From positions 2,652-66,651 of the forward strand of contig JACPBX010000003.1 in assembly GCA_016180085.1 (NCBI GenBank): a stretch of 64,000 nucleotides of DNA, given 5' to 3'. This stretch comes from Candidatus Woesearchaeota archaeon. Its GTDB lineage: Archaea; Nanobdellota; Nanobdellia; Woesearchaeales; UBA10216. The notes beneath the pieces were generated by a model. That model made no database searches, had not been told where the DNA came from, and worked only from the letters and a program-made list of their open reading frames with translations. Of the stretch, positions 1-8,908 are shown in pieces (within the stretch, counting starts at the first letter, position 1; each line of letters begins with the position of its first letter). The translations under genes were made by a program, and so were the position numbers.

Positions 1-829
1 TGTTACAGACATGGCTGCGCTTAGGTTAATAATAGAAAAGTATAACATAAAGACTATCTACCATCTTGCGGCGTTGTTGTCGATTGCTGCAGAGAAGAAT
101 CCTGCGCGTGCCCAAGAAGTGAATACAACCGGCTTCATGAATGTTCTTGAGGCTGCTAGGGAGTATGGCTTGAAGGTGTTCTGGCCAAGCTCAATAGCTG
201 TTTTTGGTCCCGATGCTCCAAAGCAGGACACTCCCCAGGACGCTCCGCTTAATCCTGTGACTGTTTACGGCAAGGGCAAGGTCGCTGGCGAGCTGCAAGG
301 CAAGAAGTATTTTGAAGAGTATGGCGTTGATTTCAGGAGTGTGCGTTTTCCCGGCCTAAATGACAGGCTTGCTGAGGGCGAGAAGCCCGGCCCGGGAACG
401 ACTGAGTACGCTATGGACATGATTGCTGCGGCAAAGGAGAACAGGCCATATAAGTCGCCTCTCAGGGCTGACACTATGCTGCCTATGATGGATATGCGCG
501 ATGCTATAAGGGCAATTCTTGGCATCATGGGAGCTCCAGCTAAGAACATCACGATAAGGACAAGTTACAATCTTGCAGCTGTCAGCTTTACTCCGGCTAT
601 GCTTCAAGCTGAAATAAGAAGGCAGGTTGACAGGCCCGGCTTTAAGGTTTCATACGATGAAATTGACCAAATGAAACAAGGCATTGCAGACTCCTGGCCT
701 GACAGAATTGGCGGCTCAGTTGCGCGCCGGGATTGGAGATGGAACCTTGGCGGCTCAGTTGCGCGCCGGGATTGGGGATGGAAACACCTGTATGGTTTGC
801 CAGAAATGGTTAAGCACATGCTGAGCTAA
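1..829 (+). CDS. Extended-SDR NAD-dependent epimerase/dehydratase, L-threonine 3-dehydrogenase-like (5' end off window)
   Basis: The frame is open from the window edge. It has YGKGK (YxxxK catalytic motif) and a C-terminal IADSWP...ARRDWGW...L.EMVKHML tail typical of UDP-glucose-4-epimerase-like threonine dehydrogenases. Stop at 827-829. Confidence 0.7.
   Translation, partial: VTDMAALRLIIEKYNIKTIYHLAALLSIAAEKNPARAQEVNTTGFMNVLEAAREYGLKVFWPSSIAVFGPDAPKQDTPQDAPLNPVTVYGKGKVAGELQGKKYFEEYGVDFRSVRFPGLNDRLAEGEKPGPGTTEYAMDMIAAAKENRPYKSPLRADTMLPMMDMRDAIRAILGIMGAPAKNITIRTSYNLAAVSFTPAMLQAEIRRQVDRPGFKVSYDEIDQMKQGIADSWPDRIGGSVARRDWRWNLGGSVARRDWGWKHLYGLPEMVKHMLS
708..785 (+). repeat. In-frame 39-bp tandem duplication (2 copies, 37/39 identical)
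   Basis: Copy 708-746 is ttggcggctcagttgcgcgccgggattggagatggaacc and copy 747-785 is ttggcggctcagttgcgcgccgggattggggatggaaac. They encode IGGSVARRDWRWN / LGGSVARRDWGWK. Confidence 0.95.
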
Positions 830-874
830 CTATATTTAAATAAAAAGCGAAAGAGTAGAGCGGAGGTGATTAGG

Positions 875-913
875 ATGGGTTGTGGATGCGGAAGTGATGA
901 CGGGGGCAAGTAA
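875..913 (+). CDS. 12-aa Cys/Gly micro-ORF MGCGCGSDDGGK
   Basis: GGAGGTGA at 862-869 lies 5 nt before the ATG. A near-identical peptide is encoded at 5325-5363(-), differing at 7 synonymous positions and one terminal codon. Confidence 0.5.
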   Translation: MGCGCGSDDGGK

Positions 914-1001
914 GCCCCTACATTACCTCAACATGCTTGGCGCTGTACTGGAAGTTTATGTAAGCGGAACTTTTAAATAAAGCAATCAAGGAGGATTTCA
1001 T

Positions 1002-1295
1002 ATGAACGAATTATCGTATAAGCTTTTTTTCAAAGCGATATCGAACAAAACGCGGTTTGAAATAGTGACCCGGCTTGGTTTAGAGCAGAGCAGGGTATCT
1101 CACAATCTGAAATGCCTGGTTGATTGCGGCTTTGTGAATGGCAGGTATAAAGGAAAAAGCAGGATATATTCGCTGACTCCGGAAGTGGTGGACATCTTAA
1201 ACGCCATTAACAGGCATCTGGACAAGTATCACGCCCATCTGAAATCATGCGGGGCGTTGGAAAAGCATGATGCTCCAAGAAGTTTGGGGAGGTGA
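1002..1295 (+). CDS. ArsR/SmtB-family wHTH regulator (unusually short)
   Basis: FKAISNKTRFEI...LGLEQSRVSHNLKCLVDCGFV matches the ArsR recognition helix and wing. SD AAGGAGGA is upstream, and a TATA-like cttttaaataaa lies at about 971-982. Confidence 0.75.
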   Translation: MNELSYKLFFKAISNKTRFEIVTRLGLEQSRVSHNLKCLVDCGFVNGRYKGKSRIYSLTPEVVDILNAINRHLDKYHAHLKSCGALEKHDAPRSLGR

Positions 1296-1301
1296 ATGAA
1301 A

Positions 1302-1370
1302 ATGGCAGAAGACAAAACGTGCGGTTGCGGTTCCGGAAAGAAGGAAAAGGACTGCTGCGGAAGCGGTTAA
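1302..1370 (+). CDS. Stand-alone SEC-C-motif mini-protein (22 aa) MAEDKTCGCGSGKKEKDCCGSG
   Basis: CGCGSGKKxKxCCG fits the SEC-C zinc-binding motif (CxCxSGxKxKxCC). GGAGGTGA at 1288-1295 overlaps the ArsR stop codon. Confidence 0.55.
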   Translation: MAEDKTCGCGSGKKEKDCCGSG

Positions 1371-1406
1371 GCCTTATTCGCAATTAAAGTTGCGGAGGCG
1401 AATCCG

Positions 1407-1448
1407 ATGGCAGATACATGTGAGCATTGCGGCAGCGGAGGTGCTTAA
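1407..1448 (+). CDS. 13-aa micro-ORF MADTCEHCGSGGA
   Basis: GGAGG at 1394-1398 lies 8 nt before the ATG. It has a CxxCGSG core shared with neighbouring micro-ORFs. Confidence 0.35.
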   Translation: MADTCEHCGSGGA

Positions 1449-1499
1449 GCACATCTAGCTGAGCATACATACGATAAAAGCTGAGGAGGTAATAAAAAA

Positions 1500-1739
1500 A
1501 TGGTAAAAGTGAAAGTTTACAGCACGCCAACGTGTCCCTGGTGTAAGAAGACAAAGGAGTTCCTAAAGGAGAACAGCATCCCTTACCAGGACGTAAACGT
1601 TGCAGGCGACCAAAAAGCGGCGGAGGAGATGTTTAAGAAGTCAGGCCAGATGGGCGTGCCAGTAACGGACATCGACGGGCAGATAGTGGTTGGCTTTGAC
1701 AAGCCAAAGTTGAAGGAACTGTTGAAAATCGGCGGATGA
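1500..1739 (+). CDS. Glutaredoxin-like protein (YruB/NrdH-like, CPWC active site)
   Basis: 79 aa, with YSTPTCPWCKKTKEFL and GVPV...GFD glutaredoxin-fold motifs. SD GAGGAGGT is upstream. Confidence 0.9.
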   Translation: MVKVKVYSTPTCPWCKKTKEFLKENSIPYQDVNVAGDQKAAEEMFKKSGQMGVPVTDIDGQIVVGFDKPKLKELLKIGG

Positions 1740-1805
1740 GGTAAAGTTAAGATTTGTTGCTGCCGAGTGATTGAATTTGCCGGAAGTTAGTGGCAGTTTG
1801 GTTTC

Positions 1806-1937
1806 ATGATGAAAGAGATGGTTCAGTTGGCCTGTGAGGTTTGCATTGAAGGAGAAAAGGGAAGAATATGCATTGACATCTGTAAATTTCTCGAAACAGG
1901 GAGGATGGAGTGCAGGTTCAGGGAAAAGCTTATTTAG
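1806..1937 (+). CDS. 43-aa five-Cys mini-protein (CxxC-x8-CxxxC-x9-C)
   Basis: The translation is MMKEMVQLACEVCIEGEKGRICIDICKFLETGRMECRFREKLI. It lies between the glutaredoxin and thioredoxin reductase genes. No clear SD was seen. Confidence 0.35.
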   Translation: MMKEMVQLACEVCIEGEKGRICIDICKFLETGRMECRFREKLI

Positions 1938-2051
1938 CTGGTCTCAAAACAGCGTAGTCAACGGCCTTGGCAGGCAAAAGTCGAAGAAATTGCTGGGAAT
2001 TGGCAAATGAAGTGGTGAGAATGCATAAAACGCTTAAGAGGGAGATGCCGC

Positions 2052-3071
2052 ATGACAAACAAGGCTGAAGGGATGTACGATGTCATAATAATCGGCGCGG
2101 GCGTTACAGGCCTTGCTGCTGGCATGTACGCTGGCAGGTTGAACATGAGGACCCTTGTTCTTGGAGCCACTTCAGGCACTGAGCAGCCAATCGGAGGGGT
2201 TATTACGCTTACCGAGGTCGTGGAGAATTATCCCGCGTTTATCAGGCTGACTGGCTCTGAACTTGCTGAGAACATGAGGAAACATGCAGAGGATTACAAA
2301 GAGAAAGTCACAATTGAAGAAGGAAAAGTGTTGGAAGTCAAGCGCCATGACGAGCGCGGGTGCTTTGCAGTAAAAACAGACGAAAAAGATTACGAAGCAA
2401 AGAGCATTATATTTGCAACAGGCACAAGGTGGAGAAAGTTGCCCATGAAAGGGGCAAAGGAATTTGAGAATAGGGGAGTTCATTATTGCGCGTTATGCGA
2501 TGGGCCTGTGTACAATGGCAAGGTAGTTGCAGTCGTTGGCGGCAGTGACACGGCTGTCAAGGAAGCTCTGTTTTTGGCTGAGTATGCGAAGAAGGTGTAC
2601 ATAATATATCGCGGTGATAAAATAAGGCCTGAGCCTGTTAACGCTAGACGTGTTGACGAGAACAAGAAAATTGTGGTGATAAACAACACTAACATCACTG
2701 AGATTGTGGGTGATAAACTGGTGAGTGAGGTTAAGCTTGATAAAAAGTTTGAAGGAAGCGATGCACTTAAGGTTGATGGTGTTTTTGGTGCTATAGGCAG
2801 CACACCGCTGTCGGAGCTCGCTGTGGGCATAGGCGTAAAGACTAATGAGAAAGGTGAAATCATGATTAACCATAAGGACTCAAGTACAAATGTTAAGGGC
2901 GTTTTTGCCGCTGGCGACGTTACTGACAAGGACTTCAAGCAGGCAATTACTGGTGTAGCGGAAGGAGTTACTGCTGCGCATTCAGCTTACCAGTATGTGA
3001 GCGAAATCGAATTTGTCTGTGTGTTTGATGATAAGCTATATGCGGAATCAAAGGCTGGTAACACGGAGTGA
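2052..3071 (+). CDS. trxB: Thioredoxin-disulfide reductase
   Basis: FAD motif DVIIIGAGVTGLAAG, redox-active CALCDG, and a second dinucleotide motif VVGGSDTAVKEA. Confidence 0.85.
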   Translation: MTNKAEGMYDVIIIGAGVTGLAAGMYAGRLNMRTLVLGATSGTEQPIGGVITLTEVVENYPAFIRLTGSELAENMRKHAEDYKEKVTIEEGKVLEVKRHDERGCFAVKTDEKDYEAKSIIFATGTRWRKLPMKGAKEFENRGVHYCALCDGPVYNGKVVAVVGGSDTAVKEALFLAEYAKKVYIIYRGDKIRPEPVNARRVDENKKIVVINNTNITEIVGDKLVSEVKLDKKFEGSDALKVDGVFGAIGSTPLSELAVGIGVKTNEKGEIMINHKDSSTNVKGVFAAGDVTDKDFKQAITGVAEGVTAAHSAYQYVSEIEFVCVFDDKLYAESKAGNTE

Positions 3072-3078
3072 TGAAAAA

Positions 3079-3234
3079 GTGCGAGAAACAAGAAAGGCAG
3101 GCAAAGTGTACTACACTTGCGATGAGTGCGGCTTTGCCTACGAAACTAAGGAGTTTGCCCAGAAATGCGAGGATTGGTGCTCAGAGCACCACAGCTGCAG
3201 CCTTGAGATTACAAAACATGCTGTTGAGGTTTAG
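3079..3234 (+). CDS. Small Cys-rich zinc-ribbon-like protein (about 51 aa; start uncertain)
   Basis: KVYYTCDECGFAYETKEFAQKCEDWCSEHHSCSLEI. The frame is the same as track ORF 3013-3234. A GTG at 3079 follows GGAGTGA, which overlaps the trxB stop. Confidence 0.55.
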   Translation: MRETRKAGKVYYTCDECGFAYETKEFAQKCEDWCSEHHSCSLEITKHAVEV

Positions 3235-3336
3235 TGCTCTGGAAGTTTTTGCTTCAGTGATTGTTTCATTTGCGTTTAAGCGATAAACTTTTATATTTCC
3301 CATGCAGAGTTCTGCAAGGGTGCTTTTGGTCAGAAA

Positions 3337-5328
3337 ATGACGCGCCATATTGTTTTGGGTAATGGAACGCTGCTGGTGAATATCGACAAGTGGCTGCAGG
3401 TCAGGGATTTTTATTACCCCCACCCAGGCCAGGAGAACCATCTGCTCGGCCATGCGCACAGGGTCGGAGTTTTTGTTGGCGGGAAGCTTTCCTGGGTTAA
3501 TGAGGATTCGTGGCTGAGGAAGCTTTCCTACGTGGATGACACTCTGATCTCTGAAAGTTTGGCCAGTAACGCTGCGATGGAATGTTCATTGAAATTTAAC
3601 GACTGTGTTGACTGCAGCAAGGACGTTTTCCTGAGAAAGCTTACCCTTTCAAACGACAGCGGCAGTGAGAGGGATTTCACTGTTTTCTTCCATCATGATT
3701 TCCACCTTTACGGGGATGGCGTTGGTGATACTACAGGATATGACCCTGTTCGTAATTCTGTTTTTCATTACAAGCGCCGCAGGTACTTTCTCATCTCAGT
3801 TGTGCAGGCTGGCTCGCGCAGGAGCAATATCTTCGAATACTCCGTTGGCTTGTCTGATTCAGGAGGCACTTTAAATGATGCTTATGATGGCGCACTAGGT
3901 AAAATTCCAATAGCGCAGGGCTCTGTTGATTCCATATGCTCGGTAAAAGCGCTGCTTAAGCCTCACTCTTCAGCTGTTTTTTACTATTTTATCTGCTGCG
4001 GCAGGAGCTTTGATGATGTGAACGCTCTTCAGTCTTACGTGCTTGACAAGACACCTGAGGAATTCTTCAGGGAGACTGACGTGTGCTGGAGGGGTTATTG
4101 TGGGAAAGCCAAAAAGCTTCATTTTGCTGACTTGAGCCATGAGGAAGTGGACCTTTTCAAGCGCTCGCTTCTGATTACGAGGACCCAGATTGATAAGCAC
4201 GGTGCTATCCTGGCAGCTAACGACTCCGATAATGTGCAGTTTAACAAAGATACTTATTCATATGTTTGGCATAGGGACGGCGCTTTTGCGGCTTTGGCTT
4301 TGCAGAGGGCTGGCTATTTTGAGCTTGCAGAAAACTTTTACCTTTTCTGCAGCCGGGTGATTGAGCGTAACAAGCGGGAGGGTTATTTCCTGCACAAGTA
4401 CAATCCCGATGGCTCTTTGGGCAGCAGCTGGCACCCGTGGATAAAGGACGAAAAGCCGCAGCTCCCAATACAGGAGGATGGGTCTGCATTACCGGTTTAC
4501 GCGCTGTGGGATTATTATGTGCGCACAGGTGAGAAAAAGTTTGTTCGCGATATGTATGAGAAGTTTGCAAAGCCGGCTGCCGAGTTCATGTGCGGCTATG
4601 TTTACAAGGGGCTGCCAAGGGAGAGTTATGACTTGTGGGAGGAGCGCCAAGGCATCCTTACCTTTACCTGCAATGCCGTCTGTGCTGGGCTGAACGCTGC
4701 CGCAAATCTTGCAAAGGAGTTTCGTGACAAGGATTACAAGCGGTATGCTGCTGCAGCAGCAAAGGTGCATGCCTCGGTTGCAAGGCACTTGTACAGTAAG
4801 ATGCAGGGCAGGTTTGTGCGCATGACCAATCTTGTCAATGGAAAATTTGTTGCCGACTTAACCGTTGACAGCAGTTTGTACGCTAATTTTGCCCTTTGCG
4901 GGTTCAAGCCGGATGACAAGAGGGTCATAGGCACGATGAAGGCAATTGAGAAATACCTTTGGGTAAAAACAGGCATTGGAGGAGTTGCCAGGTATTACAG
5001 CGACCAGTATCACAAGAACTCGAATGATTTTGAAACTGTGCCTGGGAACCCGTGGTTTATCTGTACACTATGGCTAGCGAAATGGTACATTGCCATAGCC
5101 AAGAGCCTGGAAGATTTGAAGAAGCCCAGGGAGCTTATAAGGTGGGTTGTAGAACATGCATTGCCAACAGGCGTGCTTCCTGAGCAGATTCATCCCTATA
5201 GCGGAGAGCCGCTTTCAGTCGCCCCCTTGACGTGGAGTCACTCAGAGTATGTTGATACCGTGCTTGATTACAGTGCAAAGTACAAAGCGCTCAGTTCAGT
5301 AAATGTAAAAATTAAGAAAAAGAATTAA
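3337..5328 (+). CDS. Glycoside hydrolase family 15 (glucoamylase/trehalase-like)
   Basis: YSYVWHRDGAFAALAL, LPIQEDGSALPVYALW, ESYDLWEER and LPEQIHP...PLTWSHSEYV are GH15 catalytic-domain signatures. Confidence 0.9.
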   Translation: MTRHIVLGNGTLLVNIDKWLQVRDFYYPHPGQENHLLGHAHRVGVFVGGKLSWVNEDSWLRKLSYVDDTLISESLASNAAMECSLKFNDCVDCSKDVFLRKLTLSNDSGSERDFTVFFHHDFHLYGDGVGDTTGYDPVRNSVFHYKRRRYFLISVVQAGSRRSNIFEYSVGLSDSGGTLNDAYDGALGKIPIAQGSVDSICSVKALLKPHSSAVFYYFICCGRSFDDVNALQSYVLDKTPEEFFRETDVCWRGYCGKAKKLHFADLSHEEVDLFKRSLLITRTQIDKHGAILAANDSDNVQFNKDTYSYVWHRDGAFAALALQRAGYFELAENFYLFCSRVIERNKREGYFLHKYNPDGSLGSSWHPWIKDEKPQLPIQEDGSALPVYALWDYYVRTGEKKFVRDMYEKFAKPAAEFMCGYVYKGLPRESYDLWEERQGILTFTCNAVCAGLNAAANLAKEFRDKDYKRYAAAAAKVHASVARHLYSKMQGRFVRMTNLVNGKFVADLTVDSSLYANFALCGFKPDDKRVIGTMKAIEKYLWVKTGIGGVARYYSDQYHKNSNDFETVPGNPWFICTLWLAKWYIAIAKSLEDLKKPRELIRWVVEHALPTGVLPEQIHPYSGEPLSVAPLTWSHSEYVDTVLDYSAKYKALSSVNVKIKKKN

Positions 5329-5363
5329 TGCCCTCCATCGTCACTGCCGCATCCGCATCCCAT
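5325..5363 (-). CDS. 12-aa Cys/Gly micro-ORF MGCGCGSDDGGH
   Basis: Strong SD GGAGGAGGG (plus-strand 5372-5380) lies 8 nt before the ATG. It is a paralog of 875-913 with synonymous-only divergence over 11 codons. Confidence 0.5.
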   Translation of the reverse strand: MGCGCGSDDGGH

Positions 5364-5387
5364 TTTACTTTCCCTCCTCCTTCGTGT

Positions 5388-5627
5388 TTAAGCGCCCAGC
5401 TTTAAAGCCTTCTTAAGCGCGTTTTTGTCAAATCCCACAACTATCTGCCCGTCTACGTCTATAACCGGCACGCCCATCTGGCCTGACTTCTCAATCATCT
5501 GCTGGGCAGCCTTGTGGTCGGCTGCCACGTTTATTTCCTGATAGGGAACATTGCTCTCCCTTAGGAACTCCTTCGTTTTCTGGCACCACGGGCATGTAGG
5601 CGTGCTGTAAATGGTTACTTTTGCCAT
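5388..5627 (-). CDS. Glutaredoxin-like protein (YruB/NrdH-like, CPWC), second copy
   Basis: 79 aa, with 55/79 residues identical to 1500-1739 by hand alignment. Confidence 0.9.
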   Translation of the reverse strand: MAKVTIYSTPTCPWCQKTKEFLRESNVPYQEINVAADHKAAQQMIEKSGQMGVPVIDVDGQIVVGFDKNALKKALKLGA

Positions 5628-5642
5628 CGTCCATCTCCGCCC

Positions 5643-5738
5643 TCACATGCCGCTGCCGCAGCATGAGCTGTACTTTTTGCCAGAGCCGCAGCCGCACATT
5701 TTTTCTGATTTTTCGCTTTTTTCTTTCTTCATTGCCAT
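5643..5738 (-). CDS. Stand-alone SEC-C-motif mini-protein (29-31 aa) ...MCGCGSGKKYSSCCGSGM
   Basis: It carries a CGCGSGKKxxxCCG SEC-C motif and sits directly upstream of the glutaredoxin-like gene, as on the other arm. AAGGTGA precedes the second ATG (5732). Confidence 0.55.
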   Translation of the reverse strand: MAMKKEKSEKSEKMCGCGSGKKYSSCCGSGM

Positions 5739-5858
5739 CACCTTCGCTTGTTTTATTTTTTATCCGCATCGTTAATGATAGCGGTTAATAATAAATAATT
5801 GATGTTTAAATTTTAAAATTACTTTTAAAGTTAAACGTTTTGACTGCAGCCGCATTTT

Positions 5859-7421
5859 TTACGGTTCTGTCTTCCACAGTTCTGTTTCCGGATGCTGCGC
5901 TGCCCACGAAAACCAGAAAGCTCCTATGCTTGGCAGCTGCTGAATCTCGGCGTTTTTTAATTCTCCGGAGACCGCCTTTAAGGAAGAGCCGCTGACCTGC
6001 CATTCTCCTCCCGTTTGGTCAAGAAGTTTGCCGCTGCTAAGGTTAAACCTCATCACTTTCGTCCCAATGCTCCTGTCAAACAGCTTTACGGCAGCTGTTT
6101 CGGGGTCTGCAATAACTAACAGTTCCCTCCCTTCGAAATTGTCATTTAATAAGCCAACCGTCAGGATGCTTTCCTCGTTATACGCCTTGTATTTGCCGTT
6201 TAGCTCAATTCCCTGAATTCTTGCCTTTGCAAAAAGCCTTTCGTCCTTGACAGCGACAGGGAACAGCGTTCCCTCACTGTCCTTGTAGCCGCCATACGGG
6301 TCTGTGCCATAAGGCCGTGCGTGGCCAGTGTCCCTGGATAGCACCTTTGTTTCAGGATACAGCTTCTTCCACCTCGCCCATGTTGTTGTTTCAATCGGTA
6401 CAACTGCCAGTTTTTGCCCGGCGAGCTCACCAACTGCACCTTTTCCTGTGAGCTGGTTCCAAAGCGTTTTTGTCTTCCTGTCATACATAAGCAGGTTGTT
6501 GTTGTAAAGCTTTCCTGAAGTGCCGAAAGTGACTGTTTCGCCATTAATTCTTCGCTCAAATGCTATGCCCGTGTCGCACAGGGGGCAGAAGGTAATGGCA
6601 AGCGGCTTTCCACGCACTTCATCGTTGACAATCTCGTGCCAGGTCATTATTTGCTCCGGGTAGGCTCGTGCCTCGCCATCAAGGTAAAGCCCCAGGACGA
6701 TTTCATCGTTGTTAAGCCAATTTTCAGCCTCTGGTGCTGTGATGAACTTGGGGCTGTCGATAGCCGGTATCCTGTCTTGCGGCAGAACCTCAACGATTTC
6801 GTCCAGCGGTATGGTATGTTTCACGCCGTTTGTTACTTTTGCCTCGTCCTTTTCTGCCTCTTTTATGTCTCTGGTTGAGCCAGTCAGCTTGCTTAGCTCT
6901 GATGTCAGCAGCTCATAATTTACAGGTCCTGTTATCCTGTTCCTTATTATGCCTTCTGAATCAATGAAGAAATGCACCGGCTGCCCAATTGTAAAATATT
7001 TCTTGCTCACAGAACCATCCGTATCAACTGCTACCACATAGGATATGTTATGTCTTTTGGCGTATTTAGAGACAGTTTCCAGGTCCTCCCTAATGCTTAC
7101 GCCTATGAACTGCACATCTTTGACCTCTGTTGCCGCCTTATTCAGGTCAGGCTGCTCTTCTCCACATATGGGGCACCATGTTGTGAAGAAGTTGATGTAC
7201 GCGGGTTTGCCGCTGTAGCTGCCGATGCTCACCGTAGTTCCGTCTGTTGCAGTGAGCGAGAACTGCGGCGCTTTTGAGTTAATCTCTCCGCTGCCCTCCT
7301 GGAAAGCGGCGAGTGTTTTTGCTATTTTCCCCTGTGCCTCGCTTGGGCTTTTCTGGCAGCCGGATGCAAGGATTACTGCCATCAATGCCGCCACTATGCC
7401 GATTGCTGCAAATCCTTTCAT
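5859..7421 (-). CDS. Lipoprotein fusing a TlpA/ResA-like thioredoxin domain to a DUF3179 domain
   Basis: Signal/lipobox AVILASGC, thioredoxin-fold WCPIC, and a C-terminal IPAIDSPKF...ARAYP...HEIVND...FCPLCDTG pattern typical of DUF3179. Confidence 0.8.
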   Translation of the reverse strand: MKGFAAIGIVAALMAVILASGCQKSPSEAQGKIAKTLAAFQEGSGEINSKAPQFSLTATDGTTVSIGSYSGKPAYINFFTTWCPICGEEQPDLNKAATEVKDVQFIGVSIREDLETVSKYAKRHNISYVVAVDTDGSVSKKYFTIGQPVHFFIDSEGIIRNRITGPVNYELLTSELSKLTGSTRDIKEAEKDEAKVTNGVKHTIPLDEIVEVLPQDRIPAIDSPKFITAPEAENWLNNDEIVLGLYLDGEARAYPEQIMTWHEIVNDEVRGKPLAITFCPLCDTGIAFERRINGETVTFGTSGKLYNNNLLMYDRKTKTLWNQLTGKGAVGELAGQKLAVVPIETTTWARWKKLYPETKVLSRDTGHARPYGTDPYGGYKDSEGTLFPVAVKDERLFAKARIQGIELNGKYKAYNEESILTVGLLNDNFEGRELLVIADPETAAVKLFDRSIGTKVMRFNLSSGKLLDQTGGEWQVSGSSLKAVSGELKNAEIQQLPSIGAFWFSWAAQHPETELWKTEP

Positions 7422-7564: not shown

Positions 7565-8200
7565 ATGGGTTATGTTGTAATAGCACCGGTCGGCGATAAC
7601 ATTGACGCACTGTTTGTTGGCCTGAAAGAGTTTCCTACAGAAAGGGTTGTCCTCATTACTCCGCCTTCAAGGGTTAAGGATGCGTTGAGGGTAAAAAAGG
7701 ACCTCGAGCGCTTCAAGATACCAGCAGCAGTAGAGGAGGTTGCTGGCAACTTTATGGAAGCCACGTTTGAAGTCATTGCCAGGGTAAAGCAAATTGAAAC
7801 AGGCAGGGACATCATAGTAAATGTGGCAACTGGGGACAGAGTCTCCACCTGTGCTGCCTTGAGCGCAGCGTTTGTCAATGGGCTAAAGGCGTTCGGTGTT
7901 GAGCATGACAAAGTCATGCTTCTGCCGATACTTAGGTTTTCATACTATAAGATGCTGACAGACAGAAAACTAGGCATCCTTAAGCTTCTTTTTAGCAAAG
8001 GCAATAAAACATTTGAGGAACTTGAGAAGGAAACAAGAATGAGTCTGCCCCTAATTTCTTACCACATTAACGGTAACCAAAAGGCTGAGGGACTGAAGCA
8101 GCTTGGGCTTGTTGAAGTTGTTGAGGGAAAGGGCAAGCCTGTAAAGTCTGTAGTGCAGCTCACAATGCTTGGCAGGTTGCTGGTAAAAGGCTACATTTAA
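7565..8200 (+). CDS. Putative regulator: Csa3/CARF-like Rossmann N-domain plus C-terminal wHTH
   Basis: The N-terminus reads VVIAPVGDNIDALFVGLKEFPTERVVLI. The C-terminus reads FEELEKETRMSLPLISYHINGN...GLVEVVEG (winged helix). This is a resemblance only; no HMM was run. Confidence 0.5.
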   Translation: MGYVVIAPVGDNIDALFVGLKEFPTERVVLITPPSRVKDALRVKKDLERFKIPAAVEEVAGNFMEATFEVIARVKQIETGRDIIVNVATGDRVSTCAALSAAFVNGLKAFGVEHDKVMLLPILRFSYYKMLTDRKLGILKLLFSKGNKTFEELEKETRMSLPLISYHINGNQKAEGLKQLGLVEVVEGKGKPVKSVVQLTMLGRLLVKGYI

Positions 8201-8257: not shown

Positions 8258-8908
8258 ATGGTTACATTTATGAGGAAGAATCCATTTTCGCTGCACCTGT
8301 TGCTTTTAATCGTCGCAATCTCAGCAGCTTTTTTAATCTCGGGTTGCACTGGCGGCTCGTCAAGGTCGCAAAGCTCGCTTACAGGCGCAGCTACTCTTGA
8401 AGACCTTGAGGGCAGGGAAGTTCCTGCTGCTGGTGATCATACCCCATTAGTCCAAGCTGCTCCAACTGCTCCTGTTGGCAATACCAAAGGTTTCACTGCT
8501 CCTGATTTTACGATTAAAACGATTGATGGCAAAGCCGTTTCGCTGCAGCAGCTCACTTCAGAAAAGCCCACCCTGCTTTACTTCTGGGCAACCTGGTGCC
8601 CTTATTGCAAAAGGGATTTGGCAGCCGCCAGCAAGGTTTACCCTGAGTATAAGGATAAAGTGAATTTTTTGGCAATTGACCTGGATCCTAAGGAAAGCGT
8701 TGCAGCAATCGCAGCGTATAAGCGAAATGGCGGCCATGATTTCATAGACTTCGCCCCTGCTGATTTGAAAGTGCTGCAGGGGTACGGGATTACTTCAACA
8801 ACAACCAAATTCGCAATTGACAGGAGCAGACTAATCCTGTGGAGGGGCTCCGGCGAGGTTGACGAGAAAACGTGGAGAATAATCCTTGATGGGCTCGCTA
8901 ACTCTTGA
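8258..8908 (+). CDS. TlpA/ResA-like thiol:disulfide oxidoreductase lipoprotein
   Basis: Lipobox FLISGC and LLYFWATWCPYCKRDL thioredoxin motif. The 3' end overlaps convergent pyrB by 11 nt. Confidence 0.8.
   Translation: MVTFMRKNPFSLHLLLLIVAISAAFLISGCTGGSSRSQSSLTGAATLEDLEGREVPAAGDHTPLVQAAPTAPVGNTKGFTAPDFTIKTIDGKAVSLQQLTSEKPTLLYFWATWCPYCKRDLAAASKVYPEYKDKVNFLAIDLDPKESVAAIAAYKRNGGHDFIDFAPADLKVLQGYGITSTTTKFAIDRSRLILWRGSGEVDEKTWRIILDGLANS

What the first reader, a model, noticed from the sequence alone, without database searches (positions are those of the whole stretch)
875..5738. Mirror-image thiol/metal island carrying seven Cys-rich micro-ORFs that the ORF track cannot see
Seen in the sequence:
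- Thioredoxin reductase (2052-3071) and GH15 are bracketed by two inverted modules, each built on a 79-aa CPWC glutaredoxin-like gene (1500-1739 + and 5388-5627 -).
- Around them lie seven ORFs of 12-51 aa: 875-913 MGCGCGSDDGGK; 1302-1370 MAEDKTCGCGSGKKEKDCCGSG; 1407-1448 MADTCEHCGSGGA; 1806-1937 (43 aa, five Cys); 3079-3234 (CxxC...CxxxC...C); 5325-5363(-) MGCGCGSDDGGH; and 5643-5738(-) ...MCGCGSGKKYSSCCGSGM.
- Five have GGAGG-type Shine-Dalgarno boxes 5-9 nt upstream (862-869, 1288-1295, 1394-1398, minus-strand 5372-5380, and AAGGTGA before 5732). Most other genes in the window look leaderless.
- The three shortest peptides and both SEC-C-motif mini-proteins share a CGSG/CGCGS core.
- An ArsR/SmtB-type repressor gene sits inside the + module, and its stop overlaps the next micro-ORF's SD.

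Inference: this looks like a coordinated system of thiolate-rich mini-peptides, either micro-metallothionein/zinc-knuckle peptides or dedicated Grx/TrxR substrates, under metal- or redox-responsive control. An alternative reading is that they are Cys/Gly-rich leader peptides. I know of no described system with this architecture.
Basis: partly seen in the sequence, partly recalled or inferred. Interest (0 to 1): 0.8.

Follow-up and report, generated by a model that had tools for sequence, protein, structure and literature searches.

The report
Tiny cysteine-peptide genes flanking archaeal glutaredoxins
A thioredoxin/glutaredoxin gene cluster of an uncultured DPANN archaeon carries several unannotated genes for 11-30-residue cysteine-rich peptides that are conserved in related genomes; they are probably small metal- or thiol-handling helpers, but nobody has tested what they do.

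Summary

The window comes from a Woesearchaeota (DPANN) contig. Its backbone is an ordinary thioredoxin reductase plus glutaredoxin-like thioredoxin system.

What is new is that the micro-ORFs behave as real genes:
- The two MGCGCGSDDGG copies differ at 7 of 30 bases, all synonymous (p~1e-5).
- Orthologous peptides sit in the same slot after the glutaredoxin gene in other Woesearchaeota (MCGSCGCSDDGGSK, MCGSCGCNDDGG..., MGCGSDDDSGK, MGCACGSGGCCSDEGGSGK).
- They carry the best SD sites (GGAGGTGA) in a genome where 47 of 48 long genes have none.
- No dinucleotide shuffle of the window reproduces them.

The 22- and 29-residue ORFs are stand-alone SecA-type metal-binding knuckles (C-x-C-x8-C-C). 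The 51-residue ORF is a conserved DUF7128 zinc-finger mini-protein. The 43-residue ORF is an orphan found in two lineages.

A leader-peptide role is unlikely, because several copies are the last cistron before a terminator.

Most likely they are abundant thiolate ligands that buffer or chaperone metals and are kept reduced by the adjacent thioredoxin system. A CmtR-like ArsR and an HFX_2341-type regulator probably control them. The function is inferred, not shown.

The parts
875..913 (+). Micro-ORF c1, MGCGCGSDDGGK (12 aa). SD GGAGGTGA at 862-869.
   Evidence: It is a paralogue of 5325-5363 with 7 synonymous and 0 non-synonymous differences in codons 2-11.
1002..1295 (+). ArsR/SmtB-family regulator. 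It has a CmtR-like cysteine pattern (C-x3-C in the recognition helix plus a C-terminal Cys) and a 14-aa in-frame deletion in the wHTH.
   Evidence: Pfam HTH_5 scores 29.6 bits. NCBIfam HTH_metalloreg scores 49.5 bits, below the cut-off of 55, and CmtR is the second hit. The alignment with 5 homologues shows the deletion.
1302..1370 (+). SEC-C mini-protein 1 (22 aa), C-x-C-x8-C-C. Its SD GGAGGTGA at 1288-1295 overlaps the ArsR stop codon.
   Evidence: The orthologue in L004 is 95% identical, with pS 0.32 and pN 0.02.
1407..1448 (+). Micro-ORF m3, MADTCEHCGSGGA (13 aa). SD GGAGG at 1394-1398.
   Evidence: Positional counterparts between ArsR or SEC-C and Grx are L004 MCGTCGDGGGA and L002 MCDSCGCGGSSPPKAR.
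1500..1739 (+). Glutaredoxin-like thioredoxin 1 (YruB family, CPWC).
   Evidence: TIGR02196 scores 102.7 bits against a cut-off of 88.55. Pfam Glutaredoxin.
1806..1937 (+). p43, a 43-aa ORF with five Cys. It is an orphan seen in two lineages.
   Evidence: It has only one homologue cluster among 5.8 billion proteins. Against L004, pS is 0.43 and pN is 0.06. The AF2 model is weak, pLDDT 73.
2052..3071 (+). Thioredoxin-disulfide reductase (CALC active site).
   Evidence: Pyr_redox_2 E-value 1.6e-43. TIGR01292 scores 301 bits, below the equivalog cut-off of 343. It lies downstream of Grx in most related loci.
3079..3234 (+). p51, a DUF7128-type C4 zinc-finger mini-protein with a GTG start. It is coupled to the TrxR stop codon.
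   Evidence: Pfam DUF7128 scores 21 bits, below the cut-off of 25.7. It has 14 DPANN homologues, several of them hitting PF23447. There are five invariant Cys. The AF2 model has pLDDT 94 and a beta-beta-alpha fold, and its best PDB matches are C2H2 zinc fingers.
3337..5328 (+). GH15 glycoside hydrolase. It is a bystander that converges on the minus-strand module.
   Evidence: Pfam Glyco_hydro_15. The same convergent neighbour is seen in L081, L082 and L093.
5325..5363 (-). Micro-ORF c2, MGCGCGSDDGGH (12 aa). It is the last cistron after Grx2, with SD at 5380-5372 and an oligo-T tract downstream.
   Evidence: Orthologues sit in the same slot in L081/L082 (identical), L091, L092, L095, L020 and L007.
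5388..5627 (-). Glutaredoxin-like thioredoxin 2 (YruB family, CPWC).
   Evidence: TIGR02196 scores 103.9 bits. It is 100% identical to NCBI MBI2140836.1 from a Woesearchaeota contig of 147,581 bp.
5643..5732 (-). SD AAGGTGA.
   Evidence: Pfam SEC-C scores 17.3 bits, below the cut-off of 20.4. The top PDB hits are the YchJ and SecA metal-binding domains. A stand-alone 29-aa homologue exists as P0016. Orthologues are present in L081, L091, L092 and L095.
5859..7421 (-). Predicted lipoprotein that fuses a TlpA/AhpC-TSA-like thioredoxin domain to DUF3179. It is the first gene of the minus-strand operon.
   Evidence: Pfam DUF3179 scores 342 bits and AhpC-TSA 84 bits. The same gene order is seen in L091, L092 and L095.
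7565..8200 (+). HFX_2341_N plus wHTH regulator, divergent from the minus-strand operon.
   Evidence: Pfam. The same divergent partner is found in L091, L092, L095, L027 and L029.
8258..8908 (+). Second TlpA-like redoxin. It marks the right edge of the thiol island.
   Evidence: Pfam AhpC-TSA, Redoxin and Thioredoxin. The next genes are unrelated: ATCase and a racemase.

Best explanation
This is a thiol-redox / soft-metal stress island of a Woesearchaeota (DPANN) archaeon.

Backbone. An ordinary thioredoxin system: one thioredoxin reductase and two YruB-type glutaredoxin-like thioredoxins.

Tiny genes. At least five unannotated tiny genes are embedded in it. I consider them genuinely translated and under selection at the peptide level:
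- Two are stand-alone SecA-type metal-binding knuckles of 22 and 29 aa (C-x-C-x8-C-C).
- Three belong to a family of 11-19-aa peptides. The core is M-(G)-C-x(1,2)-C-G, followed by an Asp/Ser/Gly tail.

Two further small proteins accompany them: a 51-aa C4 zinc finger and a 43-aa orphan with five Cys.

Expression. Each tiny gene sits behind the strongest ribosome-binding sites of an otherwise SD-poor genome. This suggests they are made in quantity as internal or terminal cistrons.

Proposed mechanism (inferred, not shown):
- The peptides act as soluble thiolate (plus carboxylate) ligands that bind, buffer or hand over soft metals (Zn, Cd, Cu, Fe).
- The co-transcribed Grx-like thioredoxin and TrxR keep their cysteines reduced.
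- A CmtR-like ArsR sensor sets transcription of the plus module, and an HFX_2341-type regulator sets that of the minus module.
For: Coding and selection:
- Copies c1 and c2 differ at 7 of 30 bases in codons 2-11. All 7 are synonymous, and the flanks are unrelated. A random set of 7 substitutions keeps the peptide in 3 of 300,000 trials.
- SEC-C mini, window vs L004: pS 0.32, pN 0.02. p43: pS 0.43, pN 0.06. Grx for comparison: pS 0.59, pN 0.10.

Orthologous slots:
- The order DUF3179 fusion -> SEC-C mini -> Grx -> micro-ORF recurs in L091, L092 and L095, with SD GGAGGTGA kept in front of each micro-ORF.
- The order ArsR -> (SEC-C) -> micro-ORF -> Grx recurs in L004 and L002.

Specificity:
- The window has 6 such micro-ORFs against 0 in each of 30 shuffles. 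The window plus 80 loci (728 kb) has 13 against 0-1 per shuffle set.
- Perfect GGAGGTGA-plus-start sites number 28. Eight of the nine that lead ORFs of 22 aa or fewer are Cys/Gly micro-ORFs; the ninth is a 2-codon ORF.
- SD is otherwise rare: 1 of 48 long ORFs.
- By the same criteria they occur in 7 of about 40 archaeal Grx loci and 0 of about 40 bacterial ones.

Metal and thiol context:
- The SEC-C spacing is exact, and the top PDB hits are the YchJ and SecA zinc-binding domains.
- The ArsR has a CmtR-like Cys pattern.
- The L004 module converges on a YHS + 2xHMA P1B-ATPase.
- Micro-ORFs elsewhere precede a peroxiredoxin (L010) or an Lgt-DsbA-Grx operon (L027).
- p51 is a confident zinc-finger-like fold.
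Against: - There is no expression or biochemical evidence of any kind.
- The number of cysteines is not conserved: 1 in L095, 2 in the window, 3 in L091/L092 and 4 in L020. A fixed single-peptide metal site is therefore unlikely.
- The micro-ORFs are missing from most Grx loci, including close ones (L093, L096, L100). They are an accessory, lineage-restricted feature.
- The exact MGCGCGSDDGG peptide was found in only two further metagenome contigs, both about 93% identical to the window.
- Metal-specific neighbours (P1B-ATPase, CmtR-like ArsR) are present in only some loci. The window's own ArsR carries a deletion that may inactivate it.
- The micro-ORF descriptor used in the shuffle test was defined after seeing the peptides.
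Confidence: 0.5

Rival explanations
1. Gene-encoded low-molecular-weight thiol. The micro-peptides (Gly-Cys-Gly core plus an acidic tail) act as a ribosomally made surrogate for glutathione or phytochelatin. They would serve as redox buffer or co-substrate for the adjacent glutaredoxin-like proteins, in an organism that probably cannot synthesise a conventional thiol cofactor.
For: - The peptides are nearly always next to a glutaredoxin-fold gene.
- One orthologue keeps only a single Cys but retains the G-C-G-S-D-D core (L095). That fits a thiol better than a chelator.
- The strongest SD sites in the genome suggest abundance.
- The second residue is always Gly, Ala or Cys. By general knowledge this favours removal of the initiator Met.
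Against: - YruB/NrdH-type proteins with a CPWC site are, as far as known, reduced directly by TrxR without a thiol co-substrate (own knowledge; the NCBIfam description leaves this open).
- TrxR is encoded right beside them.
- Peptides this short are usually degraded quickly.
- I did not test whether the genome lacks thiol-cofactor biosynthesis.
- No chemistry has been done.
Confidence: 0.2
2. Cysteine- or glycine-sensing leader peptides (upstream-ORF attenuators). They would tune translation or transcription of the downstream thiol genes according to charged tRNA supply, like the polycysteine leader ORFs of mycobacteria.
For: - Some members are the first ORF of an operon or lie just upstream of Grx or peroxiredoxin: window 875-913 and 1407-1448, L029, L027, L010, L002.
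- L010 and L029 have consecutive Cys codons.
- There is precedent in bioRxiv 10.1101/834739.
Against: - The best-conserved member is the last cistron. It is followed by an oligo-T tract and a convergent gene in the window, L081, L082, L091, L092 and L095, so there is nothing downstream to regulate.
- Downstream genes have their own SD sites.
- The RNA around the micro-ORFs shows no significant structure: z = -1.5, -1.0 and +1.8.
- Conservation extends to the Ser/Asp/Gly tail, not only to the Cys codons.
Confidence: 0.1
3. Not genes. The micro-ORFs are chance ORFs in G-rich spacers, or the conserved element is an RNA or DNA motif (for example a ribosome-loading site), and the peptide is irrelevant.
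For: - They are very short.
- They are unannotated in the GenBank record.
- The tail after DDGG varies, and one orthologue has a frame-shifted C-terminus (L091).
Against: - Wobble-only divergence between paralogues, p~1e-5.
- Zero occurrences in shuffles.
- Start codon, frame and SD are kept across lineages while the nucleotide sequence changes.
- No RNA family or significant fold was found.
Confidence: 0.05
4. Precursors of modified or secreted peptides: RiPP-like natural products, or metal-scavenging peptides such as methanobactin-type chalkophores.
For: The composition, rich in Cys, Gly and Ser, resembles the core regions of thiazole/oxazole peptides (own knowledge).
Against: - There is no leader region, since the peptides are only 7-19 aa.
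- No cyclodehydratase, radical-SAM enzyme, MNIO, protease or exporter gene lies in the window island or in any related locus inspected.
Confidence: 0.03

Closest known systems
SecA-type metal-binding domain (SEC-C motif, PF02810) as found in SecA, YecA and YchJ
   Same: The 22- and 29-aa ORFs have the exact C-x-C-G-S-G-K-K-x3-C-C spacing. Their best matches in the PDB are the YchJ and SecA zinc-binding domains. A charged linker precedes the knuckle, as in the SecA C-terminal tail.
   Different: Here the knuckle is the whole protein, in an archaeon that has no SecA/SecB pathway. It is encoded inside a glutaredoxin operon. Pfam scores (17.3 and 10.5 bits) are below the gathering cut-off of 20.4. 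The last ligand is Cys rather than the His common in SecA.
ArsR/SmtB metal sensor with a cysteine-rich effector (SmtB-SmtA metallothionein; CmtR with a P1B-ATPase)
   Same: An ArsR-family gene with a CmtR-like cysteine arrangement directly precedes genes for Cys-rich peptides. In L004 the module abuts a YHS/HMA P1B-ATPase.
   Different: The peptides are 11-29 aa, against 50-60 aa for bacterial metallothioneins. They show no similarity to SmtA/BmtA or MymT and have a variable Cys count. The effector genes are co-directional with the regulator and mixed with thioredoxin-system genes. Metal binding and metal-dependent derepression are untested.
TrxR-like reductase plus YruB/NrdH-type glutaredoxin-like thioredoxin. 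Examples are the Clostridium pasteurianum Cp34/Cp9 peroxiredoxin-reducing system and archaeal Grx-fold thioredoxins such as MJ0307 (own knowledge; the MJ0307 reference is listed in PMC5627308).
   Same: Both Grx-like genes pass the YruB family cut-off. In the plus module Grx1 is followed by p43 and then the TrxR gene; in most related loci TrxR follows Grx directly (52 tblastn hits among 80 loci).
   Different: This part is ordinary. The micro-ORFs and SEC-C minis have no counterpart in the described systems.
Polycysteine leaderless short ORFs acting as cysteine-responsive attenuators in mycobacteria (bioRxiv 10.1101/834739)
   Same: Very short Cys-rich ORFs associated with sulfur and thiol genes. 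Some DPANN members sit upstream of the operon.
   Different: Here the ORFs are SD-led, not leaderless. Cys alternates with Gly. The most conserved member is the terminal cistron with nothing downstream to attenuate.
Haloarchaeal zinc-finger micro-proteins / DUF7128 (PF23447)
   Same: p51 and its DPANN homologues hit PF23447. It is predicted with high confidence as a beta-beta-alpha zinc-finger-like fold with four invariant Cys.
   Different: The window protein scores below the Pfam cut-off (21 against 25.7 bits). It carries an extra invariant HHSC element. It is consistently placed beside Grx, TrxR, ArsR or HxlR genes.
Glutathione and phytochelatins (enzymatically made Glu-Cys-Gly thiols)
   Same: The composition (Cys, Gly, acidic residues), the small size and the genomic company of a glutaredoxin-fold protein.
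   Different: The peptides here are ribosomally encoded and alpha-linked. There is no synthetase, and no evidence yet that they accumulate or are used by the Grx-like proteins.

Membership tests
SEC-C motif / SecA metal-binding domain (PF02810) | Ligand spacing C-x-C-x8-C-[CH] with a G-S-G-K-K core | tested here: met
   1302-1370 reads CGCGSGKKEKDCC and 5643-5732 reads CGCGSGKKYSSCC. The orthologues in L004, L081, L091, L092 and L095 keep the spacing.
SEC-C motif / SecA metal-binding domain (PF02810) | Score at or above the Pfam gathering threshold (20.4 bits) | tested here: not met
   Scores are 17.3 and 10.5 bits. However, all ten best PDB sequence matches are SEC-C domains; the best is YchJ-C at E = 0.0024.
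SEC-C motif / SecA metal-binding domain (PF02810) | Binds Zn or Fe through the four ligands | not testable with these tools
   Needs metal analysis of the purified or synthetic peptide.
Bacterial metallothionein (SmtA/BmtA, MymT) | Sequence similarity to a known metallothionein family | tested here: not met
   None of the small ORFs of 20 aa or more gave a metallothionein hit in Pfam or NCBIfam. The 12-13-aa peptides are too short for these tools.
Bacterial metallothionein (SmtA/BmtA, MymT) | High Cys content in C-x-C / C-C / C-x-x-C motifs, no aromatic residues, and a metal-sensor regulator nearby | tested here: inconclusive
   The motifs and the absence of aromatic residues are met for the micro-peptides. 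A CmtR-like ArsR is adjacent in the window, L004 and L002. However, the Cys number varies from 1 to 4 and the window's ArsR is truncated internally.
Cys-responsive leader-ORF attenuator | The ORF lies upstream of, and on the same transcript as, the regulated genes | tested here: not met
   Not met for c2 and its orthologues, which are the terminal cistron before an oligo-T tract and a convergent gene. Met by position only for 875-913, 1407-1448, L027, L029 and L010.
Cys-responsive leader-ORF attenuator | An alternative RNA structure or coupling that links ORF translation to downstream expression | tested here: not met
   Folding z-scores are -1.5, -1.0 and +1.8. There is no Rfam hit in the region.
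YruB-family glutaredoxin-like protein (TIGR02196) | Score above the curated cut-off, plus a CxxC active site | tested here: met
   Scores are 102.7 and 103.9 bits against a cut-off of 88.55. Both have CPWC.
Thioredoxin-disulfide reductase (TIGR01292) | Equivalog score cut-off (343 bits) and a CxxC redox centre | tested here: inconclusive
   The score is 301 bits, below the cut-off, but it is the top hit over the full length. CALC is present. The NADPH-binding HRRxxxR motif reads YRGDKIR (sequence), so the electron donor is uncertain.
ArsR/SmtB metalloregulator, CmtR-like subtype | A complete winged helix-turn-helix | tested here: not met
   There is a 14-aa in-frame gap covering the end of helix 2 and helix 3, relative to 5 homologues. 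NCBIfam HTH_metalloreg scores 49.5 bits, below the cut-off of 55. Pfam HTH_5 passes at 29.6 bits against 22.
ArsR/SmtB metalloregulator, CmtR-like subtype | Cys-x3-Cys in the recognition helix plus a C-terminal Cys (the CmtR Cd/Pb site; own knowledge of the M. tuberculosis CmtR sequence) | tested here: met
   SHNLKCLVDCGF and the C-terminal LKSCG are conserved in four of the five aligned homologues (L004, L002, L046, L022); the distant paralogue L083b keeps only one Cys of the pair. CmtR is the second-best NCBIfam hit, E = 1.4e-6, far below its equivalog cut-off.
DUF7128 (PF23447) | Pfam gathering score (25.7 bits) | tested here: inconclusive
   The window protein scores 21 bits. Six of its 14 homologues carry a precomputed PF23447 hit.
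RiPP precursor | A leader region plus a neighbouring maturase or exporter | tested here: not met
   The peptides are 7-19 aa with no leader. Neighbours are redox proteins, regulators, GH15 and an epimerase.

The most novel reading that the evidence does not exclude
DPANN archaea, which lack most biosynthetic pathways, encode their low-molecular-weight thiol directly in the genome. On this reading, highly translated 10-18-residue Gly-Cys-Asp peptides (mature form about GCGCGSDDGG) serve as a ribosomally made analogue of glutathione or phytochelatin. They would act as redox buffer, as co-substrate of the adjacent glutaredoxin-fold proteins, and as metal chelator.
Probability: 0.2. Interest if true: 0.85.

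Novelty: new variant of a known kind. Interest (0 to 1): 0.62.

Why it matters
If the peptides are made, they would be among the shortest conserved protein-coding genes known in archaea. They would show that gene callers systematically miss a class of functional genes in DPANN genomes; the GenBank record annotates only three proteins between the two glutaredoxin genes.

They would also give a handle on how ultra-small, biosynthetically poor archaea handle thiol redox balance and soft metals. No low-molecular-weight thiol or metallothionein has been described for these organisms.

The SD-plus-micro-ORF signature (GGAGGTGA, 5-6 nt, ATG, Gly/Cys-rich ORF of 22 codons or fewer) is simple enough to screen all DPANN genomes. 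The peptides are short enough to synthesise and test directly.

Tried and rejected
1. Leader-peptide / attenuator reading. Rejected as the general explanation because c2 and its orthologues are terminal cistrons and no RNA structure is significant.
2. Known RNA family. None was found in the region at Rfam gathering thresholds.
3. Back-translated search for MGCGCGSDDGG in metagenome contigs. It returned only two near-identical relatives, so the exact peptide is narrow.
4. Two viral-collection scans. They gave only chance matches inside long GC-rich frames, or nothing.
5. Protein database searches of the peptides. The tool needs at least 40 aa, so the 12-31-aa ORFs could not be searched that way. 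A phmmer run of the 32-aa ORF (from the GTG at 5741) against 1.8 billion representatives gave 4 hits, one of them a stand-alone 29-mer.
6. p43. It has a single homologue cluster and a weak structure model, so no fold search was run.
7. RiPP and secreted-peptide ideas. No maturase or exporter was found in any locus.
8. Strict 'mirror-image island'. The gene orders of the two modules differ, and the GH15 gene between them is an unrelated convergent neighbour.
9. Three further Grx2-like loci (L093, L096, L100) lack micro-ORFs. The feature is therefore not universal to this glutaredoxin clade.

Full report
**Observation.** I read 1-7000 and listed all ORFs of 20 aa or more.
- GGAGGTGA at 862-869 lies 5 nt before the ATG at 875.
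- GGAGGTGA at 1288-1295 lies 6 nt before the ATG at 1302, and its TGA is the ArsR stop codon.
- GGAGG at 1394-1398 lies 8 nt before 1407.
- GGAGGAGGG on the minus strand (5380-5372) lies 8 nt before 5363.
- AAGGTGA lies 6 nt before the ATG at 5732.

The two 79-aa CPWC genes are 70% identical in protein. They form a 203-nt inverted repeat at 79% identity.

Family scans confirm the larger genes:
- YruB-type glutaredoxin-like proteins: 102.7 and 103.9 bits against a cut-off of 88.55.
- A thioredoxin reductase: Pyr_redox_2 at 1.6e-43. TIGR01292 scores 301 bits, the top hit but below the equivalog cut-off.
- GH15, and an ArsR-family HTH.

**Is it more than chance?**
- Of 48 long, mutually non-overlapping ORFs in the 64-kb window, one has an SD-like motif. 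Thirteen have a TATA-like box 18-42 nt upstream of the start codon.
- The octamer GGAGGTGA occurs twice in 64 kb, both times in front of a micro-ORF.
- I defined a descriptor: ATG, an SD within 16 nt, 6-30 codons, at least 2 Cys, and at least 60% C/G/D/S/E. It finds 6 ORFs in the window, all within 875-5741, and none in 30 dinucleotide shuffles. Over the window plus 80 related loci (728 kb) it finds 13, against 0-1 per shuffle set.
- The descriptor was written after seeing the peptides, so this is supportive rather than independent evidence.

**Coding signal.**
- The two MGCGCGSDDGG copies have unrelated flanks. They differ at 7 of the 30 bases of codons 2-11, and all seven differences are synonymous. 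Only the last codon differs in meaning (K/H).
- Random placement of 7 substitutions preserves the peptide in 3 of 300,000 trials. Even restricted to third positions, only 3% do.
- Window versus L004: the SEC-C mini has pS 0.32 and pN 0.02, p43 has pS 0.43 and pN 0.06, and the neighbouring Grx gene has pS 0.59 and pN 0.10.

**Source and relatives.**
- Grx2 is 100% identical to NCBI MBI2140836.1 and Grx1 to MBI2140832.1, both on a 147,581-bp Candidatus Woesearchaeota contig. The accession numbers leave room for only three annotated proteins between them, so most of the small ORFs are indeed unannotated.
- A genome scan with the two Grx proteins gave 80 loci, about half DPANN archaea and half bacteria, mostly Omnitrophota. 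A local tblastn gave 52 TrxR hits among these 80 loci, nearly one per locus and mostly directly after Grx, so that pair is a common, ordinary unit.
- The closest locus, L004, has ArsR -> MAKDKTCGCGSGKKEKDCCGSG -> MCGTCGDGGGA (SD GGAGGTGA) -> Grx -> the 43-aa ORF. It then meets a convergent P1B-ATPase with YHS and two HMA domains.
- L002 has ArsR -> MCDSCGCGGSSPPKAR -> Grx -> a p51 homologue.
- A back-translated search for MGCGCGSDDGG in metagenome contigs returned only two contigs, about 93% identical to window 3334-5764. They have the same SEC-C -> Grx -> micro-ORF arrangement converging on GH15.

**Orthologues of the minus-strand module.** I looked up contigs that encode close Grx2 homologues. 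This gave three further Woesearchaeota lineages (L091, L092, L095) with the same order as window 8200->5325. The order is HFX_2341_N regulator, divergent from TlpA-like/DUF3179 fusion -> SEC-C mini -> Grx -> micro-ORF.
- Their SEC-C minis are MKKGEKKSEKLCGCGSGKKSSDCCGC, MKKGKNEKSEKLCGCGSGKKYSECCGC and MKKEKSEKSEKLCGCGSGKKYSECCGSGM. The last is gene-called as a 29-aa product.
- Their micro-ORFs, each 5-6 nt after GGAGGTGA, are MCGSCGCNDDGGINSFS, MCGSCGCSDDGGSK and MGCGSDDDSGK.
- L020 (MGCACGSGGCCSDEGGSGK) and L007 (MGCGCGGCCGCSSD...) have a micro-ORF in the same post-Grx slot.
- Each of these terminal micro-ORFs is followed by T-rich sequence and, in the window and in L081, L082, L091, L092 and L095, by a convergent gene.

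Other DPANN loci carry related SD-led micro-ORFs at the head of thiol operons:
- MGGCCGGE before Grx in L029.
- MGGDGDGCACGGNSDC before Lgt-DsbA-Grx in L027.
- MGGDGCC before a peroxiredoxin in L010.

L027 and L029 are again divergent from an HFX_2341_N regulator.

Perfect GGAGGTGA-plus-start sites number 28 across all sequence held. Nine lead ORFs of 22 aa or fewer; eight of these are Cys/Gly micro-ORFs and the ninth is a 2-codon ORF. By the same criteria, 7 of about 40 archaeal loci and 0 of about 40 bacterial loci have them. Three Grx2-like loci (L093, L096, L100) have none.

**The larger small proteins.**
- *SEC-C minis.* Both have the exact C-x-C-x8-C-C spacing. Pfam SEC-C scores are sub-threshold (17.3 and 10.5 bits against 20.4), but all ten best PDB sequence matches are SecA, YchJ or 'SEC-C motif' metal-binding domains. 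A phmmer run against 1.8 billion representatives found one stand-alone 29-mer at 93% identity.
- *p51.* It has 14 homologues in Woese-, Pace- and Nanoarchaeota, several with PF23447, and five invariant Cys. A confident AF2 model (pLDDT 94) shows a beta-beta-alpha fold whose best PDB matches are C2H2 zinc fingers (Kaiso, TM 0.62, rmsd 1.8 over 36 columns). The E-values are not significant, as expected for so small a domain. Its neighbours elsewhere are Grx, TrxR, ArsR, HxlR and a DSP-type phosphatase.
- *p43.* It has a single homologue cluster and a weak model.

**Regulators and extent.**
- The ArsR-family protein has Cys-x3-Cys in the recognition helix and a C-terminal Cys. Four of the five aligned homologues keep this pattern; the distant paralogue L083b does not. 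This is the arrangement I know from the Cd/Pb sensor CmtR, which is its second-best NCBIfam hit. It also lacks 14 residues of the wHTH that all five homologues have.
- On the other side the island continues with a predicted lipoprotein that fuses a TlpA-like thioredoxin domain to DUF3179 (5859-7421), an HFX_2341_N/wHTH regulator (7565-8200) and a second TlpA-like redoxin (8258-8908). Unrelated metabolic genes follow.
- DUF3179 is listed among predicted selenoprotein families with a UxxC/T motif (PMC9312934). That is consistent with a redox role.

**Mechanism.**

Shown:
- The ORFs exist, are non-random, carry coding-type conservation, and keep their SD and frame across lineages.
- They are physically tied to Grx-like genes and to two regulator types.

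Inferred:
- They are translated, probably strongly, since they own the best SD sites in an SD-poor genome.
- The products are soluble thiolate-rich ligands. For the SEC-C minis a Zn/Fe knuckle is the obvious reading.
- For the 11-19-aa family I favour metal buffering or hand-over by Cys thiolates and Asp carboxylates, with the co-transcribed Grx-like thioredoxin and TrxR keeping them reduced.
- Supporting context: the CmtR-like sensor, the P1B-ATPase neighbour in L004, and the C-x-C / C-C / C-x-x-C motifs.

The variable Cys count (1-4) is the main internal argument against a defined chelate site. It keeps alive the rival that the peptides are a gene-encoded thiol used with the glutaredoxin-fold proteins.

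A leader-peptide role, for which mycobacterial polycysteine ORFs are the precedent (bioRxiv 10.1101/834739), cannot apply to the terminal-cistron members. It also finds no support in RNA folding or Rfam. It remains possible for the operon-initial members in L010, L027 and L029.

**Comparison and novelty.** The TrxR/Grx-like pair, the ArsR family, the SEC-C motif and DUF7128 are all known. What I could not find described is twofold:
- the family of SD-led 7-19-codon Gly/Cys/Asp ORFs;
- the stand-alone SEC-C knuckles as fixed components of DPANN glutaredoxin operons.

I therefore class the finding as a new variant of a known kind: small Cys-rich metal or thiol proteins attached to a thioredoxin system. 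Its real but untested novelty lies in the micro-peptide family.

**Limits.**
- All evidence is comparative.
- The number of independent lineages is about eleven.
- Collection scans were capped.
- The peptides were too short for the protein databases.

Noticed in passing
window 1002-1295: The ArsR-family gene lacks 14 residues (end of helix 2 and helix 3 of the wHTH) that are present in all five aligned homologues. The deletion is in frame. The regulator may be crippled, or the assembly may have collapsed a stretch.
   Followed up: partly
window 708-783: A perfect-register tandem duplication of 39 nt (97% identical) lies near the 3' end of the epimerase/dehydratase-family gene (11-829). It duplicates the 13-aa segment LGGSVARRDW(R/G)W(N/K).
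   Followed up: no
whole window (48 long ORFs): Only 1 of 48 long ORFs has an SD-like motif, and 13 have a TTTAAATA-type box 18-42 nt upstream of the start codon. Translation in this genome may therefore be largely leaderless. SD sites are concentrated on internal cistrons and micro-ORFs of the thiol island.
   Followed up: partly
window 7565-8200; L091 285-911; L092 517-1143; L095 1-565; L027 2669-3304; L029 4193-4828: A regulator of about 210 aa (HFX_2341_N Rossmann-like domain plus wHTH, distantly Csa3-like) is the conserved divergent partner of operons that contain a Cys/Gly micro-ORF, in six lineages. Its ligand and targets are unknown.
   Followed up: partly
window 5859-7421: This gene fuses a TlpA/AhpC-TSA-like thioredoxin domain to DUF3179 behind a lipobox-like N-terminus (…LASGC…). 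The fusion is conserved as the first gene of the operon in L091, L092 and L095. DUF3179 has no known function and is listed as a predicted selenoprotein family elsewhere.
   Followed up: partly
L092 3606-3743(-), L091 3773-3907(-), L090 6430-6558(+): A further unannotated family of about 45 aa with nine Cys (…CCDSGVCPACDCCICICTKELKK…). In L091 and L092 it lies next to the p51 homologue and is divergent from an HxlR-type regulator. It is not present in the window.
   Followed up: partly
L091 3329-3451(-), L010 3328-3450(+), L003 4735-4854(+), L048 4864-4974: A family of about 40 aa with the N-terminus M..CP..GCK...G.C.HE followed by one transmembrane helix recurs near Grx genes in DPANN loci. 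One copy has a perfect GGAGGTGA SD. There is no Pfam hit.
   Followed up: no
window 2052-3071: In the thioredoxin reductase, the position of the NADPH 2'-phosphate motif HRRxxxR reads YRGDKIR. The physiological electron donor may therefore not be NADPH.
   Followed up: no
L077 3716-3778: An Omnitrophota (bacterial) locus has a 20-aa ORF, MGCGCCGPKKAKKKSKKKKK, 85 nt upstream of a rubredoxin gene. It has an MGCGC start like the archaeal peptides but a poly-Lys tail.
   Followed up: no
window 5325-5328: The stop codon of GH15 (plus strand, 5326-5328) overlaps the stop codon of the minus-strand micro-ORF (ends at 5325) almost base for base. The same tight convergence is kept in L081 and L082.
   Followed up: partly
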